Source of the DNA: an uncultured Gammaproteobacteria bacterium
GTDB lineage: Bacteria; Patescibacteriota; Microgenomatia; UBA12405; JAHJSD01
Direction of reading: 5' to 3'
Assembly (NCBI GenBank): GCA_964428655.1
Contig: CAYRYE010000002.1
Location: 2,251 to 66,250, forward strand
DNA: 64,000 bases
Shown here: one piece after another, positions 2,277-31,997 of the stretch
Numbering within the stretch: the first letter of the stretch is position 1
Layout of the letters: every line of letters begins with the position of its first letter
Program-made: the position numbers and the translations under genes
The notes under the pieces: model-generated
Database searches by the model: none
Told to the model about the DNA's origin: nothing
What the model saw: the letters and a program-made list of their open reading frames with translations, nothing else

Positions 2277-2792
2277 TCAGTAATTTCTCGGAATAATGGT
2301 GGTTCTGAATTGGACTGAACTCGCTTGTTCTGCTTCTCCTTGACTCAGGCCGAAATTAATTGTTACTTTCGGAGTCTCTCCTGGATTAAAACTGCAAAGC
2401 GCAAATTCACTGCAATCAATGTCAACATTTTGAACCAGTATTGCCGGATTAGCGCTATCAGAGGCTATTTGGCTTGCACTACAAGTAAAGGTAGTCCACA
2501 AACCATCTCTACTTCTAATAGAAATGCTCCCCATGACAAGACCATCACAAATATCTCCAATGGTCTCTATCCCATTCGGATCTCCTATTTCCTCGGCGCC
2601 GCGAATCTTCCTCTCCACCACCCCTATGGCAAATGTGCCTTTTTGCTTTAATGTTTTGATTATTTTGGACTTAGTACTGCTCCTTACAACAACTAAGAAA
2701 ATACTGGCTGTTATCACTCCAATAATTCCCAAGATGGCAGTGGCTACCATTAATTCGATAATGGTAAAACCCTTATTATTAGCGGTCAACAT
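2277..2792 (-). CDS. type IV pilin-like / pseudopilin protein
   Basis: Prepilin N-terminus 'NNKGFTIIELMVATAILGIIG'. Start placed at the internal Met to avoid an 86-nt overlap. Cys-containing C-terminal domain. Confidence 0.55.
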   Translation of the reverse strand: MLTANNKGFTIIELMVATAILGIIGVITASIFLVVVRSSTKSKIIKTLKQKGTFAIGVVERKIRGAEEIGDPNGIETIGDICDGLVMGSISIRSRDGLWTTFTCSASQIASDSANPAILVQNVDIDCSEFALCSFNPGETPKVTINFGLSQGEAEQASSVQFRTTIIPRNY

Positions 2793-3216
2793 CCCAATCA
2801 GTGAAATAACTAGTAACCTCAAACTCTCTTTCCTGACTGCCATCATTCCAGGTAACTGTGACAAGTATCTCTACTTTTCTTGTTGAAGGAGTAGTGCTTC
2901 CATCCAACTCATAGTTTTGAAAGCTAAAAACGCGCTGGATTAAACCAAAATCGCTCATGTCCTCGGGGCTACTGATATATCCATCTTCTGCCCAAGTCCA
3001 GAAATCATCCAACTCATTCCTTTTCATGGCTTTTAAATCTTCCATTTTCTCCTGGGTTAGTTTGACTGCTACTGATCTTAATTTGGCCCCTCGAGCAATA
3101 CGATTGAAATAGATAACCGCAAAAACAAAACCGGATAAAATTAATCCGGTGATGCCAATAACAAAAACTACTTCAATCAAGGTTTGCCCCCTGCTAGCTA
3201 TATCCTTCATAATCAC
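2779..3216 (-). CDS. minor pseudopilin-like protein
   Basis: N-terminal 'RGQTLIEVVFVIGITGLIL' hydrophobic prepilin-like segment (GspJ/PilV-like). Confidence 0.5.
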   Translation of the reverse strand: MIMKDIASRGQTLIEVVFVIGITGLILSGFVFAVIYFNRIARGAKLRSVAVKLTQEKMEDLKAMKRNELDDFWTWAEDGYISSPEDMSDFGLIQRVFSFQNYELDGSTTPSTRKVEILVTVTWNDGSQEREFEVTSYFTDWDVDR

Positions 3217-3218
3217 AC

Positions 3219-3686
3219 TCAGGACAATTCTATCTCCCCTGATTCGGAAATATCAATCTGTTTTGTTTTATTATTATAAGTCACAGTGATTGATTCTACC
3301 TCATCCACCACTCCCGATAAGCTTTGAAACTTAAAGCTGGCAATCCCGCATTGAGCAAGGGAATCTAACTCTATTGTCTCGGGACTAATACTCACTTCAC
3401 TCCCTGTTCCATCACGACAATTGGCAGTGACAACAAGATCGCAGTCGGCGGCAACATCAATTTGGTAATTACTGAAAAACAAACACTCAGGGTTAACTGG
3501 TTTTTCTCCGTTGATCGCTTTAAACCTAATCAACCGAAACTGAGAAACCAATTCCAGGCCCACTGATTCTACAACTTTTTTTTCGCGATAATTAGTCCAG
3601 CTCGCCAAACTAAAACTGGTCATAATTCCCATAATAGTAACCACAACCATTAACTCAACTAAAGTGAAGCCGTTCTTCTTCATCAA
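3219..3686 (-). CDS. type IV pilin-like protein
   Basis: 'MMKKNGFTLVELMVVVTIMGIM' class III signal peptide (G|FTLxE). Confidence 0.7.
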   Translation of the reverse strand: MMKKNGFTLVELMVVVTIMGIMTSFSLASWTNYREKKVVESVGLELVSQFRLIRFKAINGEKPVNPECLFFSNYQIDVAADCDLVVTANCRDGTGSEVSISPETIELDSLAQCGIASFKFQSLSGVVDEVESITVTYNNKTKQIDISESGEIELS

Positions 3687-21474: not shown

Positions 21475-21560
21475 CCAGGGGTGGCGGAGTGGTCAAACGC
21501 ACGAGTCTGTAAAACTCGCGGGTTATCCCTACGTAGGTTCGAATCCTACCCCCTGGACCA
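21475..21560 (+). tRNA. tRNA-Tyr (anticodon GTA), class II with long variable arm, C1:G72 acceptor pair, CCA encoded
   Basis: Hand-fold. Acceptor CCAGGGG/CCCCTGG. Anticodon stem CGAGT/ACTCG with loop CTGTAAA. Variable arm of about 14 nt. T-arm GTAGG-TTCGAAT-CCTAC. 3' end ACCA. Confidence 0.7.
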
Positions 21561-28580: not shown

Positions 28581-29603
28581 ATGTTCAAACCAAAGTACAA
28601 ATTAACCCCCGAACTGCTTAAAATAATTTTGGAGACAGAGCGTTTTTATGGTCAACTGATGGCTCTCAGAATCCCCAAAGAATTGGAAATCAACTTAAAA
28701 AGGGACAACCTTCTCCAATCCACTTATATTTCCAACAGCATTGAGGGCAATCCTTTAACCCTGCCAGAGGTGACTAACCTACTGTTGGACAACCGCGTTC
28801 CGGTTAATCGAGATGAAAAAGAAATAGTAAATTATTTTTCTGCTCTTGAGAATCTAGAAAATCATCTTGACAAGTCTCCATCAATTTCTTTAATGAAAGC
28901 AATCCACAAACAGGTGTTAGAGGGAGTCAACAACCAAATTGCCGGTAAGGTCAGAAGTGAAAGAGTAGCCGTCGGCAGATATGCTAAGGAAAAAAACACT
29001 TCTACTTTTAGAATCAAACATCGGCCTCCTTACCACAAAAAAGAAGAAATTGAAAACTATCTTAAAAAACTTTTTGACTGGACCAAAGCCTCGGATAATC
29101 TATCTGTGGTTTTAAAAGCAGGAATTTTCCATCACCATTTTGTTTATCTTCATCCCTTTGTTGACGGCAACGGACGAACTTGCCGTCTGCTAACCACTTT
29201 GATTTTTTTAAAAAATAACTACTTAATTAATAAATATTTTGTTTTAGACGATTATTACGACATTGACCGCTATCTTTATTTTGATAAGCTCCACTCTGCT
29301 GATAAAGGAGATAAAACAGAGTGGCTGGAATATTTTAGCGAAGGCGTTAAATATTCAATGCAGAGCGCTTTAAGTAAAGTCAAAACAGCTCTTGAAAAAC
29401 TCAGTTTTCAAAAACAACTCACTAACCAGGAGAAAAAAGTCTTAACTATTGTTAGGGAAATGGAAAGGGTCACTTCTAATTATCTTGGCCAAAAATTAAA
29501 AGTCTCCCGCCAACAGGCTCACAGCCTACTCAGTTCTTTGGTTGAAAAAGGATTTTTAGACAAAAAGGGTTCGACAAAATCAAGCTATTATTTTTTGAAA
29601 TAG
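28581..29603 (+). CDS. Fic-family protein (second paralog) with C-terminal winged-helix domain
   Basis: Fic motif 'HPFVDGNGRTCRL'. C-terminal wHTH-like segment. Confidence 0.8.
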   Translation: MFKPKYKLTPELLKIILETERFYGQLMALRIPKELEINLKRDNLLQSTYISNSIEGNPLTLPEVTNLLLDNRVPVNRDEKEIVNYFSALENLENHLDKSPSISLMKAIHKQVLEGVNNQIAGKVRSERVAVGRYAKEKNTSTFRIKHRPPYHKKEEIENYLKKLFDWTKASDNLSVVLKAGIFHHHFVYLHPFVDGNGRTCRLLTTLIFLKNNYLINKYFVLDDYYDIDRYLYFDKLHSADKGDKTEWLEYFSEGVKYSMQSALSKVKTALEKLSFQKQLTNQEKKVLTIVREMERVTSNYLGQKLKVSRQQAHSLLSSLVEKGFLDKKGSTKSSYYFLK

Positions 29604-29653
29604 CTGCATGGACAGATCAATAGTGTTAATAAATCGAAAGATATTACTTTTGT

Positions 29654-30028
29654 TTATCTCTCGGGATAGCCTGCAGCATTTACCCTAAAAATACGCCTCG
29701 CCCTTTTACCTAAATACAACTCTCTTTTCCCTCTTAAGGCAGCTATTGCTCCCGCACCTCTCGCTGGAAAAAAAGCTAATTGCTCGACCTCACGACCAGC
29801 TCTTCTAGCAAGCATAGAAGAAAGGCTTTCTCCTTTGTGAGCATCGGGTAAGGAAAATGGCGGTTCATCTGCCAGTTTTCCATAAACTATTCTTTCCACA
29901 AGTACTTTCTTATCCTCTCTAGAATGCCCTCCGCCCAACAATCTTTGGGTAGCACGATGTCCTGTTCTTGCTTGCTGCAAAATCTCTAATCCTAATTGCT
30001 GACGACAACTTAAGTTTTCATTAACCAT
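29654..30028 (-). CDS. hypothetical Arg-rich ORF in a GC-elevated segment; coding status uncertain
   Basis: 124-codon open frame within 730 bp of otherwise non-coding DNA. GC noticeably above its neighbours. No recognisable motif. Confidence 0.25.
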   Translation of the reverse strand: MVNENLSCRQQLGLEILQQARTGHRATQRLLGGGHSREDKKVLVERIVYGKLADEPPFSLPDAHKGESLSSMLARRAGREVEQLAFFPARGAGAIAALRGKRELYLGKRARRIFRVNAAGYPER

Positions 30029-30258
30029 AAAATTAAAATTGTTTTACAACCTATAAGTTAACATTATTATAGCAACAAAAATAAACATGTCAACAAAGTT
30101 TTATTGGAAGCTAAATCTCTTAAATCAAACAAAACAAACTTTCAGTAATTACAGGTGAATAAAGCGGTGGAAAAGGAAAATGGATAAATGTATCACGTAT
30201 CATTTTTCCCGGTGTTACTACAGGTGTCAACTCCAGCGTTGACAAGATTTACAAAAAA

Positions 30259-30318
30259 CTTGACAATTAACTTGACAATTGTCTACTTTTTAGAAAAAAT
30301 TTGGAAATCTGTTATTAT
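30259..30318 (+). promoter_or_regulatory. promoter-like region upstream of tyrS: duplicated 'AACTTGACAATT' boxes and an extended -10 'TGTTATTAT'
   Basis: Two direct TTGACA-containing repeats at 30260-30265 and 30272-30277. TGnTATTAT at 30310-30318. ATG at 30333. Confidence 0.3.
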
Positions 30319-30332
30319 TTAAAGAGAAATCG

Positions 30333-31997
30333 ATGAAAAAAGTAAAAACATTTGAAAAAATCTCTGAAAAAATCAAAAAGTTGTCAATCCCTTTTGAGGA
30401 AATAAGTTTTACTGATAAGACTGTTTCAACGAGACAGAAAGATACTTCTATTAAGGGAAATTATATTCCTGAAGAAGCAGTTAAAACTATTGTTGTTAAG
30501 ACTAAAAAGGGAATTAAAGCGGTCATTCTTAAAGGAACAAACCAAATTGACCAACTGGCCCTGAAAGCAATTGTTGATAAATGGAGTATTGTTAGCCCTG
30601 AGGTTTTAGAAAAAGAAACCGGTTTTTTACCCGGCTGTGTCTGCCCCCTTGATCTTGACGTGCCAATTTTAATTGACAAATCGGTTTTGGAAATGGAAAA
30701 TTGGAATATGGGCGCAGGTAATATTTACAAAGGAATCGCTATAAAGAAGAACGACGCCCTTAAAATAATTGGTTCTTTCCAAACAGTCGATGTGACCAAA
30801 AAAAGCAAAGTAGAAAAAACTAAAAGCATAAACAATATAGAAGAAAAACTATCTTTAATTACCAGAAACACTGAAGAGGTTTTAACTAAAGAGGATTTAA
30901 AAAACCTAATTACTTCTGGGACAAAACTGAAACACTATATTGGTTTTGAGATCTCGGGCAAAGTGCATTTGGGGACGGGATTGATGTCCATGGGCAAAGT
31001 AGCTGATTTTCTCCGAGCTGGAGTTAAATGCACTCTCTTTTTAGCTGATTTTCACTCTTATTTAAACAATAAATTGGGAAGGAGCTGGGATAATATCAGA
31101 AGGGCAAGCGAGGGTTATTTTAAAGAAGGACTAATTGCCTCCCTGAAGTGCTTTAAGATTGATGTTGAAAAAGAAATTAGGGAAAGTAATTTGCGGTTTG
31201 TGATGGGGGCCGATTTATACAAGAATAATTTAGTCCATTGGGAAACCTTTATGGAAGTAGGAAAACACCTCACCTTGTCCCGAAACTTAAGGTCAATCTC
31301 AATTATGGGTAAGAAAATGGACCGGGACGTAGATATGGCCACTTTGTTTTATCCGCCGCTCCAAGTGGCGGATATTTTCACTCTTGGCGTGAACATCGCT
31401 CATGCGGGCATTGATCAAAGAAAAGCTCATGTGATTGCTAGAGAAGTAGCTAAAAAACTAACCATCAATCCTTTAAAAAATAAAAAAGGAGAGGTAATTG
31501 CTCCGGTAGCAATTCACCATAAGACTATTGCTGGCTTAGAGGGACCAAAAAAAACTGATAAGCAAAAAGGGGATGAATTGGCCACTGATTTAAAAATGAG
31601 TAAGTCAAAACCAGACTCGGCTATATTTGTTCATGATTCACCTAATGAAATCCGCCGAAAAATCACTAAAGCCTTTTGCCCACCCAGAGAAACGGAATTT
31701 AACCCAATTATTAATTGGTCTGAATGTTTAATTTTTTGGGGACAGGCCCGCCTTGACTCGGCGAGACAGGCGGGGTTAGAAATCAAACGGCCAGCGAAAT
31801 TTGGCGGGAATAAAAAATATCAAACAATTAAAGAAATAAAAGAAGATTATAAAAAAGGTAATTTACATCCAGCTGATCTTAAAAATGCAGTTGCCGAGTG
31901 GTTAATCACCAAGCTTGAGCCAGCCAGAAAACACTTTAACAGCGGAAAAGCAAAAAATGGCTTAGATTTTCTAGAAAAAATAACAACTAAAACTTAA
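30333..31997 (+). CDS. tyrS: archaeal/eukaryal-type tyrosyl-tRNA synthetase with N-terminal YbaK/ProX-like deacylase domain (fusion)
   Basis: C-terminal 380 aa collinear with M. jannaschii-type TyrRS ('YIGFEISGKVHLGTGL', 'LFLADFHSYLNNK', 'KMSKSKP', 'IKRPAKFGG...LHPADLKNAVAEWLITKLEP'). N-terminal 170 aa match the YbaK fold ('ETGFLPGCVCPLDLDVPILIDKSVLE...NMGAGNIYKGIAI'). Confidence 0.8.
   Translation: MKKVKTFEKISEKIKKLSIPFEEISFTDKTVSTRQKDTSIKGNYIPEEAVKTIVVKTKKGIKAVILKGTNQIDQLALKAIVDKWSIVSPEVLEKETGFLPGCVCPLDLDVPILIDKSVLEMENWNMGAGNIYKGIAIKKNDALKIIGSFQTVDVTKKSKVEKTKSINNIEEKLSLITRNTEEVLTKEDLKNLITSGTKLKHYIGFEISGKVHLGTGLMSMGKVADFLRAGVKCTLFLADFHSYLNNKLGRSWDNIRRASEGYFKEGLIASLKCFKIDVEKEIRESNLRFVMGADLYKNNLVHWETFMEVGKHLTLSRNLRSISIMGKKMDRDVDMATLFYPPLQVADIFTLGVNIAHAGIDQRKAHVIAREVAKKLTINPLKNKKGEVIAPVAIHHKTIAGLEGPKKTDKQKGDELATDLKMSKSKPDSAIFVHDSPNEIRRKITKAFCPPRETEFNPIINWSECLIFWGQARLDSARQAGLEIKRPAKFGGNKKYQTIKEIKEDYKKGNLHPADLKNAVAEWLITKLEPARKHFNSGKAKNGLDFLEKITTKT

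What the first reader, a model, noticed from the sequence alone, without database searches (positions are those of the whole stretch)
30333..31997. Archaeal-type TyrRS fused to an N-terminal YbaK/ProX-type trans-editing deacylase domain
The C-terminal ~380 aa are collinear with archaeal/eukaryal TyrRS. They contain 'GFEISGKVHLGTGL', 'KMSKS', and a tail 'IKRPAKFGG...LHPADLKNAVAEWLITKLEP' that is nearly identical in pattern to Methanocaldococcus TyrRS. The first ~170 aa have the YbaK/ProX deacylase signature ('ETGFLPGCVCPLDLDVPILIDKSVL...NMGAGNIYKGIAI'). YbaK-family domains normally occur free-standing or inside ProRS. A cis fusion to TyrRS would give an editing/proofreading-capable TyrRS by a route other than the unrelated DTD fold. 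I do not know of this architecture being characterised.
Basis: partly seen in the sequence, partly recalled or inferred. Interest (0 to 1): 0.72.

Follow-up and report, generated by a model that had tools for sequence, protein, structure and literature searches.

The report
TyrRS fused to YbaK-type deacylase
A candidate-phyla-radiation bacterium makes its tyrosine-charging enzyme (TyrRS, textbook example of a synthetase with no proofreading module) as one protein with a YbaK-fold tRNA-deacylase domain, and the same small domain family turns out to be fused or operon-coupled to TyrRS again and again, which points to an uncharacterised proofreading step for tRNA-Tyr.

Summary
Window 30333..31997 (+) is one uninterrupted 554-aa ORF. 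It has a YbaK/INS-fold domain (res 1-156; PF04073, 52 bits vs cutoff 25.5), an ~11-residue disordered linker, and a complete archaeal-type TyrRS (NF006330, 374 bits vs 220). The identical protein was assembled in independent sequencing runs.

The N-domain keeps the two catalytic hallmarks of the INS superfamily, Lys (K51) and the G-XXX-P loop (G101-P105). It belongs to a small, tight Patescibacteria family that is roughly equidistant from YbaK, ProXp-x, APE2540 and INS.

Of the 56 family members I retrieved, 38 are free-standing and 18 are long. All 18 long ones are TyrRS fusions, to archaeal-type and to bacterial-type TyrRS, with two different domain orders. In WWE3 and Roizmanbacteria the free gene overlaps tyrS. 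In another clade it overlaps an Asp-type amino-acid racemase gene.

Best reading: a TyrRS-dedicated post-transfer editing (aminoacyl-tRNA-Tyr deacylase) module. D-Tyr-tRNA-Tyr is the leading but unproven substrate. I found no description in the held literature, and databases call these proteins just "tyrosine--tRNA ligase". I class it as a new variant of a known kind, of high interest to the aaRS field.

The parts
30333..31997 (+). Whole gene: 554-aa YbaK-like deacylase domain, linker and archaeal-type TyrRS in one reading frame (stop codon 31995-31997)
   Evidence: the identical protein lies on 6 independent contigs
30333..30800 (+). N-terminal YbaK/INS-fold domain (res 1-156)
   Evidence: PF04073 at 52-55 bits; AlphaFold model with pLDDT 93 that matches YbaK, APE2540, ProXp-x and the ProRS INS domain; family HMM 214 bits
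30432..30470 (+). Family-specific motif R34-x2-D-T-S39-x3-N43-Y44-x-P46, just upstream of the catalytic strand
   Evidence: R34, S39, N43, Y44 and P46 are invariant in 33 fused and free sequences and in the 12 fusions
30483..30485 (+). Codon of K51, the presumed catalytic lysine (A-V-K-T-I)
   Evidence: Aligns to the K-T-L lysine of H. influenzae and E. coli YbaK, APE2540 and ProRS INS. K-T-[ILV] is present in 56 of 56 family members. A conserved Lys is a hallmark of the INS superfamily (PMC11286415).
30633..30647 (+). G101-C-V-C-P105, the G-XXX-P substrate-binding loop
   Evidence: G101 and P105 are invariant. The loop aligns to the GGISP / GSLGP / GGVPP loops of YbaK, INS and APE2540. The residue before the Pro is Cys in 42 of 52 members.
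30705..30734 (+). N-M-G-A-G-x4-G glycine-rich strand/loop (G127, G129, G134 invariant)
30801..30833 (+). Lys-rich interdomain linker (res 157-167)
   Evidence: pLDDT is below 50 at res 159-162 in the full-length model. This is the least conserved, gap-rich part of the alignment. There is no usable internal start codon.
30834..31994 (+). Archaeal-type TyrRS (res 168-554): Rossmann-fold catalytic core plus C-terminal anticodon-binding region
   Evidence: NF006330 at 374 bits; 2cyc at E=1e-108
30966..30980 (+). HIGH-equivalent motif H-L-G-T-G (res 212-216)
   Evidence: Invariant in the fusions and identical to the aligned 2cyc TyrRS sequence
31593..31607 (+). KMSKS motif (res 421-425)
30239..30318 (+). 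AT-rich upstream region with three TTGACA boxes and a TATTAT box: candidate promoter(s) of the fusion gene
   Evidence: consensus matches only
21475..21560 (+). tRNA-Tyr(GUA), the presumed substrate tRNA: C1-G72, A73, encoded CCA, long variable arm

Best explanation
The gene encodes the organism's tyrosyl-tRNA synthetase with a built-in post-transfer editing module. The C-terminal part is a normal archaeal-type TyrRS that charges tRNA-Tyr. The N-terminal YbaK/INS-fold domain, tethered by a flexible ~11-residue linker, is a hydrolase. Like its relatives, it would use the conserved Lys (K51) and the G-XXX-P loop (G101-P105) to bind the 3' aminoacyl-adenosine and cleave the ester bond of a wrongly charged tRNA-Tyr before it leaves for EF-Tu. 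The domain family is dedicated to TyrRS. It works in trans as a ~155-aa protein, in some genomes translationally coupled to tyrS, and in cis in the fusions. The leading candidate substrate is D-Tyr-tRNA-Tyr, the one error TyrRS is known to make, which would make the family a DTD-like chiral proofreader on a different fold. Shown: the architecture, its conservation, the catalytic motifs, the fold, and the exclusive linkage to TyrRS. Inferred: hydrolytic activity, tRNA-Tyr as the target, and above all the identity of the aminoacyl group removed. I give about 0.65 to a TyrRS-dedicated deacylase and about 0.3 to D-Tyr specifically.
For: (1) The domain is intact and under constraint. The 12 fusions have a mean column identity of 64% in the N-domain against 67% overall. 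K-T-[ILV] is present in 56 of 56 family members and GxxxP in 52 of 56. The model is confident (pLDDT 93) with a YbaK fold. Lys plus GXXXP is the catalytic signature of all characterised INS-superfamily deacylases (PMC11286415).
(2) The linkage to TyrRS is exclusive. All 18 long proteins with a family-level N-domain (at least 180 bits) are TyrRS fusions.
(3) The linkage is independent of TyrRS ancestry. The family is fused to archaeal-type TyrRS (the window, P0002-P0061, P0333). It is also fused to bacterial-type TyrRS (TIGR00234 at 334 bits): P0156, P0313, P0331, P0158. P0156 (YbaK-B3/4-TyrRS) and P0313 (B3/4-YbaK-TyrRS) have different domain orders, which means separate fusion events.
(4) Fused forms are scattered in the Patescibacteria TyrRS tree. 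The closest relatives of the window's TyrRS (P0003 at 74% identity, and P0010) are truly unfused in the same synteny.
(5) Split forms exist. In WWE3 (L005) and Roizmanbacteria (L018) the free-standing gene sits directly upstream of tyrS with overlapping stop and start codons, each preceded by a HisC-like aminotransferase gene.
(6) For the D-amino-acid reading: in a separate clade the free-standing gene overlaps by 4 nt an Asp-racemase-family 'amino acid racemase' gene (TIGR00035, 162-170 bits) in four genomes. Chiral errors are made by AspRS, PheRS, TyrRS and TrpRS and are cleared by DTD (PMC10123102). DTD substrates are D-Tyr-, D-Asp- and D-Trp-tRNA (PMC1807948).
(7) The window's tRNA-Tyr has A73 and C1-G72, which matches an archaeal-type TyrRS as the working enzyme.
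Against: There are no biochemical data. TyrRS is classically accurate enough against L-amino acids to need no editing. Close relatives at 74% identity do without the domain in cis, so it is dispensable or supplied in trans. Whether those genomes carry a free copy was not testable. No INS-fold enzyme is known to be D-specific, and the literature states that D-aminoacyl-tRNAs are not handled by classical editing domains. The racemase linkage is confined to one clade, with racemases 83-89% identical. Other free-standing copies have unrelated neighbours (M20 peptidase, HD, unknown genes). Presence or absence of DTD in these genomes could not be tested. The trees are neighbour-joining without support values. 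The relative placement of the two active sites in the model could not be inspected.
Confidence: 0.62

Rival explanations
1. The domain is an editing deacylase for tRNA-Tyr, but its substrate is an L-configured near-cognate or non-protein amino acid (Phe, L-DOPA, meta-Tyr, ring-substituted tyrosines) rather than D-Tyr.
For: All characterised INS-superfamily enzymes remove L- or achiral residues: Ala, Cys, Ser/Thr, aminobutyrate, fluorothreonine. In Dojkabacteria, TyrRS also carries a B3/4 domain, the fold that removes Tyr and m-Tyr from tRNA-Phe in PheRS and canavanine from tRNA-Arg in CtdA. This shows that CPR TyrRSs face more than one error class. The operon partner in WWE3 and Roizmanbacteria is a HisC-like, possibly aromatic, aminotransferase.
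Against: TyrRS discrimination against Phe is classically very high (my knowledge). There is no evidence that these anaerobic groundwater organisms meet oxidised Tyr analogues. This reading does not explain the racemase coupling.
Confidence: 0.22
2. The domain is a general trans-editing factor for ProRS errors (Ala- or Cys-tRNA-Pro, like ProXp-ala or YbaK). It is fused to TyrRS only for co-expression or by accident.
For: The nearest HMMs by name are YbaK and the ProRS INS domain. Bacterial ProXp-ala reads the C1:G72/A73 acceptor end (abstract), and the window's tRNA-Tyr has the same acceptor end, so an ancestral tRNA-Pro specificity is conceivable.
Against: All 18 long family members are fused to TyrRS and none to ProRS or anything else. 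Fusion occurred independently to two unrelated TyrRS types and in two domain orders, and there is conserved translational coupling to tyrS in two phyla. Scores against YbaK and INS models are far below their cutoffs (35-39 vs 153; 33-36 vs 558).
Confidence: 0.07
3. The domain is a non-catalytic appendage, for example an extra tRNA acceptor-stem binding or dimer-stabilising module, as with some inactive INS-like N-domains of eukaryotic ProRS.
For: A related YbaK-like subfamily fused to TrpRS has lost the catalytic Lys. Other CPR TyrRSs carry a plain tRNA-binding domain at the N-terminus (P0038, PF01588).
Against: In this family the Lys and the GXXXP loop are essentially invariant, and several further pocket-region residues are invariant too (R34, S39, N43, Y44, G127, G129, G134). 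Free-standing 155-aa forms exist with the same conservation.
Confidence: 0.07
4. The fusion is an artefact: a mis-assembly, a sequencing frameshift or a gene-calling error that joins two adjacent genes.
For: Split, overlapping gene pairs do exist in WWE3 and Roizmanbacteria, so a single indel could in principle fuse them.
Against: The identical ORF is found in 6 contigs from independent runs and pipelines. At least 18 fused sequences at 49-59% identity have a continuous alignment through a real linker. Three more fused ORFs were read directly from genome DNA (L008, L009, L011).
Confidence: 0.01

Closest known systems
YbaK (Cys-tRNA-Pro/Cys deacylase; H. influenzae 1dbu/1dbx, E. coli 2dxa)
   Same: The fold is the same (Foldseek E=2e-11, TM 0.75). 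The size is the same (~155 aa). The catalytic Lys sits in a K-T-L strand and there is a G-XXX-P loop.
   Different: Only ~21% identity. TIGR00011 scores 35-39 bits against a cutoff of 153. The family has its own motifs (R-x2-DTS-x3-NY-x-P, G-x-x-C-P). It is linked to TyrRS, not ProRS.
ProXp-ala fused to the N-terminus of ProRS in Plasmodium and Trypanosoma (and the INS domain inserted in bacterial ProRS)
   Same: An INS-superfamily editing domain sits in cis with a synthetase, separated by a disordered linker. This is the only previously described synthetase fusion of this superfamily.
   Different: The partner there is class II ProRS and the error is Ala-tRNA-Pro. Here the partner is class I TyrRS, which is not known to have any editing domain.
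APE2540 (1wdv), T. thermophilus ProX/ProXp-x (2cx5, 2z0k), Atu3699 (1vki)
   Same: APE2540 is the best profile hit among solved structures (E=2e-6). TM scores are 0.78-0.80.
   Different: Identity is 16-19%. There is no closer relationship than to YbaK, so the family is roughly equidistant from all solved members.
D-aminoacyl-tRNA deacylases DTD1, DTD2 and DTD3
   Same: The proposed job is the same: clearing D-Tyr-tRNA-Tyr, the canonical DTD substrate. The family is linked to TyrRS and to an amino-acid racemase.
   Different: The fold is unrelated, and there is no Gly-cisPro motif. A functional analogy is inferred only. No DTD homolog was seen in the window or fetched loci, but that sample is too small to mean anything.
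B3/4 editing domain of PheRS beta and CtdA
   Same: It is another trans/cis editing fold that CPR bacteria append to TyrRS (Dojkabacteria, ~655 aa). In P0156 and P0313 it occurs together with this YbaK-like domain.
   Different: The fold is different, and it is absent from the window's protein.

Membership tests
INS / YbaK superfamily (Pfam PF04073 tRNA_edit) | Sequence match above the curated Pfam threshold | tested here: met
   52.2-55.2 bits vs cutoff 25.5. All 12 fusion N-domains hit, best E=1e-17.
INS / YbaK superfamily (Pfam PF04073 tRNA_edit) | YbaK-type alpha/beta fold | tested here: met
   The AlphaFold model has pLDDT 93. The 37 PDB matches at E<=1e-3 are almost all YbaK, ProX or ProRS-INS structures or proteins with that fold, with TM 0.64-0.80.
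INS / YbaK superfamily (Pfam PF04073 tRNA_edit) | Conserved catalytic lysine | tested here: met
   K51 aligns with the K-T-L lysine of YbaK, INS and APE2540. It is present in 56 of 56 family members. The feature is defined in PMC11286415.
INS / YbaK superfamily (Pfam PF04073 tRNA_edit) | G-XXX-P substrate-binding loop | tested here: met
   G101-C-V-C-P105, with G and P invariant. Present in 52 of 56 members by pattern.
INS / YbaK superfamily (Pfam PF04073 tRNA_edit) | Aminoacyl-tRNA deacylase activity | not testable with these tools
   Needs a deacylation assay.
YbaK proper (Cys-tRNA-Pro deacylase, TIGR00011 / NF007951) | Equivalog-level HMM score | tested here: not met
   34.6-38.8 bits vs cutoff 153.25, and 19.5 vs 243. 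Free-standing relatives P0144 and P0154 also fail.
ProXp-ala / ProXp-x / ProXp-ST / ProXp-7,-8,-9 clusters | Membership in a named cluster of the published sequence-similarity network | not testable with these tools
   The defining network (Kuzmishin Nagy et al. 2020) is not in the held library. Structural matches to ProXp-x (2cx5, E=2e-9) and ProXp-ala (9bu5, E=3e-4; 1vjf, 6e-7) are no better than the match to YbaK. ProXp-8 and ProXp-9 cannot be excluded.
Archaeal/eukaryal-type tyrosyl-tRNA synthetase (NF006330) | Equivalog-level HMM score over the full length | tested here: met
   374.4 bits vs cutoff 220, model positions 2-333 of 342. The bacterial tyrS model TIGR00234 scores only 97 vs 113.8.
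Archaeal/eukaryal-type tyrosyl-tRNA synthetase (NF006330) | Class I signature motifs (HIGH-like, KMSKS) and Tyr-pocket residues | tested here: met
   H-L-G-T-G at 212-216 and KMSKS at 421-425. Y202 and Q344/D347 (LQVADI) are conserved and align with the 2cyc TyrRS sequence.
Archaeal/eukaryal-type tyrosyl-tRNA synthetase (NF006330) | Cognate tRNA-Tyr with C1-G72 identity pair | tested here: met
   The window's tRNA-Tyr at 21475-21560 is C1-G72, A73. Relatives vary: L008 is G1-C72.
D-aminoacyl-tRNA deacylase (DTD1/2/3), functional analogy only | Homology to the DTD fold / Gly-cisPro motif | tested here: not met
   The domain has a YbaK fold. It is not a DTD family member. Only a functional analogy is proposed.
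D-aminoacyl-tRNA deacylase (DTD1/2/3), functional analogy only | D-selective hydrolysis; phyletic complementarity with DTD | not testable with these tools
   Whole-genome DTD presence or absence could not be queried. tblastn on the window and loci found nothing, but the sample is too small.

The most novel reading that the evidence does not exclude
This Patescibacteria YbaK-fold family is a fourth, convergent type of D-aminoacyl-tRNA deacylase (a chiral proofreader). It works in trans next to an amino-acid racemase in some lineages. In others it has been captured repeatedly by TyrRS, the synthetase most prone to charging the D-enantiomer, creating the first TyrRS with a cis chiral-editing domain. 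More broadly, CPR bacteria would be systematically hard-wiring trans-editing factors onto synthetases that elsewhere have none: YbaK-like and B3/4 domains on TyrRS, B3/4 on ArgRS, and a YbaK-like domain on TrpRS.
Probability: 0.3. Interest if true: 0.88.

Novelty: new variant of a known kind. Interest (0 to 1): 0.74.

Why it matters
TyrRS is a textbook synthetase without an editing domain. Its one known weakness, charging D-tyrosine, is covered in other organisms by free-standing DTD enzymes of unrelated folds. A conserved YbaK-fold domain with intact catalytic residues has been joined independently to two evolutionary types of TyrRS, and it also exists as a tyrS-coupled or racemase-coupled stand-alone gene. 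That defines a new, experimentally tractable editing system.

- It would add a new substrate class and the first class-I partner to the INS superfamily.
- It could explain how genome-reduced CPR bacteria, which scavenge amino acids from hosts and cell-wall debris, keep tRNA-Tyr clean.
- It offers a compact orthogonal proofreading module for the archaeal-type TyrRS/tRNA pairs used in genetic-code expansion.
- It shows that database annotation ("tyrosine--tRNA ligase", sometimes with the N-domain trimmed off) hides the architecture.

Tried and rejected
1. Rfam on the 730-bp upstream region (29550-30400) at E<=1 gave only a chance miRNA hit. No leader or T-box-like element was found.
2. tblastn with E. 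coli DTD (sequence from memory) against the window and all loci gave nothing. This is uninformative for whole genomes, so the DTD-complementarity test remains open.
3. The genome-contig scan with the N-domain profile returned only 5 loci, too few for statistics.
4. The profile search of the 5.8-billion-protein database listed only free-standing forms and none of the known fusions. It is therefore not a census. I used the representative search and an offline HMM tally instead.
5. A Foldseek search of AFDB50 with the full-length model was not available.
6. Literature searches for a TyrRS-YbaK fusion, DTD in CPR/Patescibacteria, ProXp-7/8/9 definitions, and D-substrate tests of ProXp-ala found no description of this architecture and no data on DTD distribution in CPR.
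7. I considered that 'unfused' close relatives were truncated gene calls. That is true for P0034 (L008) but false for P0003 and P0010, where a minus-strand gene ends ~50 nt upstream.
8. I considered an internal start that would yield a separate TyrRS. There is no Met or SD-preceded start in the linker.
9. The idea that the invariant Cys before the loop Pro is essential was weakened. It is Asn, Asp or another residue in 10 of 52 members, including the tyrS-adjacent WWE3 copy.
Full report
**1. The observation**

Window 30333..31997 (+) is a single 554-aa ORF with an ATG start and no internal stop. Pfam finds two domains above threshold: PF04073 tRNA_edit (res 45-142, 52.2 bits, cutoff 25.5) and PF00579 class-I W/Y synthetase (res 197-527, E=3e-40). 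NCBIfam places res 168-540 in the archaeal-type TyrRS equivalog NF006330 (374 bits, cutoff 220), while the bacterial tyrS model stays below its cutoff. The best solved relative is TyrRS 2cyc (E=1e-108), and M. jannaschii TyrRS 1j1u gives 1e-41.

The identical protein is recorded on six contigs from NCBI, JGI and Logan, including two different sequencing runs. The linker has no Met or SD-preceded start. The fusion is real and obligate.

**2. Organism and context**

The nearest TyrRS homologs are named Candidatus Shapirobacteria or Patescibacteria. The neighbourhood is ordinary chromosome:
- MetRS
- a GH52-like protein
- a Fic+MarR protein
- an orphan minus-strand ORF
- the fusion gene
- a 107-aa membrane protein
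- a ferredoxin
- a DsbA-like protein
- a SpoU methylase
- GyrB and GyrA

The closest relatives of the TyrRS part, P0003 (74% identity) and P0010, share the downstream synteny. They are genuinely unfused, because a minus-strand gene ends ~50 nt upstream of their tyrS. The window also holds tRNA-Tyr(GUA) at 21475-21560 with C1-G72, A73 and a long variable arm. That is the archaeal/eukaryal acceptor identity pair on a bacterial-style class-II tRNA body, which fits an archaeal-type TyrRS as the working enzyme.

**3. The N-domain**

Twelve fusion clusters among the top 120 TyrRS hits align end to end. Their N-domains are about as conserved as the whole protein (mean column identity 64% vs 67%). The invariant positions include:
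- K51, in A-x-K-T-L
- G101 and P105, the ends of a G-XXX-P loop
- a family-specific R34-x2-D-T-S-x3-N-Y-x-P46 motif
- G127, G129 and G134

A profile of the N-domains aligns K51 to the catalytic-strand lysine, and the loop to the GGISP / GSLGP / GGVPP loops, of YbaK, ProRS INS and APE2540. The literature gives exactly these two features, the conserved Lys and GXXXP, as the shared catalytic apparatus of the INS superfamily (PMC11286415).

An AlphaFold model of res 1-160 is confident (pLDDT 93). It matches YbaK (1dbx, E=2e-11), E. coli YbaK (2dxa), APE2540, Atu3699, ProXp-x (2cx5/2z0k) and the ProRS INS domains at TM 0.64-0.80 and 14-21% identity, with none clearly closest. Scores against the YbaK equivalog models are far below their cutoffs. 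The domain is therefore a member of the superfamily but not of YbaK proper. Whether it equals one of the uncharacterised clusters ProXp-8 or ProXp-9 could not be tested.

The full-length model (pLDDT 91, pTM 0.79) shows two folded domains joined by a disordered linker around res 159-162.

**4. The family beyond the window**

A profile search of the 5.8-billion-protein set found 35 free-standing ~152-160-aa homologs at 41-52% identity, from Roizmanbacteria, WWE3 and unnamed Patescibacteria. An exhaustive profile search of 1.84 billion representatives shows a small, sharply bounded family: 9 representatives at E<=1e-30, then a steep drop.

That search also exposed P0156 (825 aa) and P0158. Follow-up showed that the same N-domain family (180-234 bits on the family HMM) is fused to bacterial-type TyrRS as well (TIGR00234, 334 bits):
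- P0331: YbaK-like, then bTyrRS
- P0156: YbaK-like, then B3/4, then bTyrRS
- P0313: B3/4, then YbaK-like, then bTyrRS

Across everything fetched there are 56 family-level members. Of these, 38 are free-standing and 18 are long, and all 18 long ones are TyrRS fusions. K-T-[ILV] is present in 56 of 56.

Neighbour-joining trees scatter the fused forms among unfused TyrRSs. They also group the window's N-domain with the L008 fusion and with free Roizmanbacteria forms, rather than with the main fused clade. The two TyrRS types and the two domain orders add to this. Together these results require several independent fusion events, or fissions. The NJ topology itself is unsupported and should be treated as indicative only.

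**5. Gene neighbourhoods of free-standing copies**

- **tyrS coupling.** In WWE3 (L005) and Roizmanbacteria (L018) the order is HisC-like aminotransferase, then the domain gene, then tyrS. The domain's stop overlaps the tyrS start (ATGA in L005, a 1-nt overlap in L018). This is the split counterpart of the window's fusion, in two different candidate phyla.
- **Racemase coupling.** In four genomes of another clade (L006/L007, L010, L012, L017) the domain gene overlaps by 4 nt an upstream Asp-racemase-family 'amino acid racemase' gene (PF01177; TIGR00035 at 162-170 bits, cutoff 93). The racemases are 83-89% identical while the deacylases are 66-69% identical.
- **M20 peptidase.** An M20 (DapE/ArgE-like) peptidase gene precedes one free copy (L001/L002) and one fused copy (L009).
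- **Other neighbours.** The remaining neighbours are unrelated.

**6. Mechanistic reading**

The shown facts are these:
- an intact, constrained INS-fold domain with the catalytic Lys and GXXXP loop
- exclusive and repeated physical or operonic linkage to TyrRS of either ancestry
- free-standing forms with the same conserved residues

These facts support a deacylase that acts on the products of TyrRS, in cis in the window's protein. What it removes is inference. D-Tyr is the best-motivated candidate, for three reasons. TyrRS is one of the few synthetases documented to make chiral errors, with AspRS, PheRS and TrpRS, and these errors are otherwise cleared by DTD (PMC10123102). The classic DTD substrates are D-Tyr-, D-Asp- and D-Trp-tRNA (PMC1807948). 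And the only non-tyrS gene that is translationally coupled to this family is an Asp-type amino-acid racemase.

There are points against. No INS-fold enzyme is known to be D-selective. The racemase link is confined to one clade. I could not test whether these genomes lack DTD.

The rival readings, with my probabilities, are:
- L-configured analogues (Phe, DOPA, m-Tyr): 0.22
- a ProRS-error editor fused by chance: 0.07, contradicted by the exclusive TyrRS partnership
- a non-catalytic appendage: 0.07, contradicted by motif invariance
- an artefact: 0.01

**7. Comparison with the known, and novelty**

The closest known architecture is ProXp-ala fused to the N-terminus of ProRS in Plasmodium and Trypanosoma, along with the INS insertion of bacterial ProRS. 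The differences here are the partner, a class-I TyrRS that has no known editing domain anywhere, and the domain family, which has its own motifs and fails the YbaK equivalog test.

A 2024 review describes INS-superfamily members other than the ProRS-linked forms as single-domain proteins. Six targeted full-text searches found no mention of a TyrRS fusion. The held library lacks most subscription papers, so prior description cannot be fully excluded. The sequences themselves are public and annotated simply as 'tyrosine--tRNA ligase'. In one case the gene call trims off the N-domain (P0034 vs the L008 ORF).

I rate the finding a new variant of a known kind: a known catalytic fold in a new family, with a new partner and probably a new substrate.

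**8. Verdict**

The significance has grown through the evidence of repeated, TyrRS-exclusive association. Interest is 0.74. The most novel reading not excluded is a YbaK-fold chiral proofreader that replaces DTD in CPR bacteria, at about 0.3 probability, which would be a notable result for the translation-fidelity field.

Noticed in passing
window 21475-21560 (+); L005 3817-3902; L014 2148-2231; L008 1836-1920; L011 4565-4637: tRNA-Tyr(GUA) of this bacterium combines the archaeal/eukaryal C1-G72 identity pair and A73 with a bacterial-style long variable arm (86 nt). L005 (WWE3) and L014 also have C1-G72. L008 has G1-C72. L011 has an odd 73-nt A1-U72 tRNA-Tyr with a short variable arm. tRNA-Tyr genes often lie within ~1-2 kb of tyrS in these lineages.
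   Followed up: partly
proteins P0214, P0243, P0276 (Candidatus Dojkabacteria), P0249/P0303 (not in the window): A more distant YbaK-like domain is fused to the N-terminus of TrpRS (TIGR00233, 244-310 bits). P0303 (791 aa) has two tandem copies plus a C-terminal extension. These domains lack the catalytic Lys (G/A/S/T-T-L instead of K-T-L) and share an 'RRDD' motif, so they form a separate subfamily that may be non-catalytic or mechanistically different.
   Followed up: partly
proteins P0309-P0330 (Dojkabacteria), P0334/P0335 (Shapirobacteria), P0336: The B3/4 domain (the PheRS-beta editing / CtdA fold) is fused to the N-terminus of bacterial-type TyrRS as the common form in Dojkabacteria (~655 aa). 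It is also fused to ArgRS in Shapirobacteria (854 aa) and to a MetRS-like class-I synthetase (739 aa). CPR bacteria seem to hard-wire trans-editing folds onto several synthetases that normally lack them.
   Followed up: no
L006 4315-5468, L010 5312-6471, L012 3186-4336, L017 3315-4465: A conserved two-gene unit pairs an Asp-racemase-family amino-acid racemase with the free-standing YbaK-like deacylase, joined by an ATGA stop/start overlap. The racemase is more conserved (83-89%) than the deacylase (66-69%). L010 carries a second racemase paralog on the other strand at 2652-3347.
   Followed up: partly
L008 2984-4615 vs protein P0034: The public annotation of this Patescibacteria contig calls only the 382-aa TyrRS part, although the ORF continues upstream through a complete YbaK-like domain (543 aa from the first start codon). 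Fusions are therefore probably under-counted in databases.
   Followed up: partly
window 29604-30332, including the ORF 29654-30028 (-): There is an unusually long (~730 bp) gap upstream of the fusion gene. It contains a 124-aa minus-strand ORF with 45% GC against 25-35% in the flanks and an Arg/Gly/Ala-rich product, with no Pfam or Rfam match. This is followed by a very AT-rich stretch with three closely spaced TTGACA boxes (30239-30283). In close relatives this position holds an unrelated minus-strand gene.
   Followed up: partly
protein P0038 (505 aa; not in the window): Another Patescibacteria archaeal-type TyrRS carries an N-terminal PF01588 tRNA-binding (EMAP/Trbp111-like) domain instead of the YbaK-like domain. 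The N-terminus of TyrRS appears to be a hotspot for appended modules in this group.
   Followed up: no
proteins P0207, P0189, P0273 (not in the window): Distant YbaK-like domains (48-69 bits on the family HMM) are fused to a dual-specificity phosphatase domain (DSPc), a SIR2 fragment and a GatB/YqeY domain respectively.
   Followed up: no
L005 3913-4995 and L018 2913-3995: A HisC-like class I/II aminotransferase (TIGR01141, 179 bits, below its cutoff) sits immediately upstream of the deacylase-tyrS pair in both WWE3 and Roizmanbacteria. It may be an aromatic aminotransferase that makes this a tyrosine-themed operon.
   Followed up: no
window 28581-29603 (+): A Fic/DOC-domain protein with a C-terminal MarR/winged-helix domain lies just upstream of the region.
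   Followed up: no
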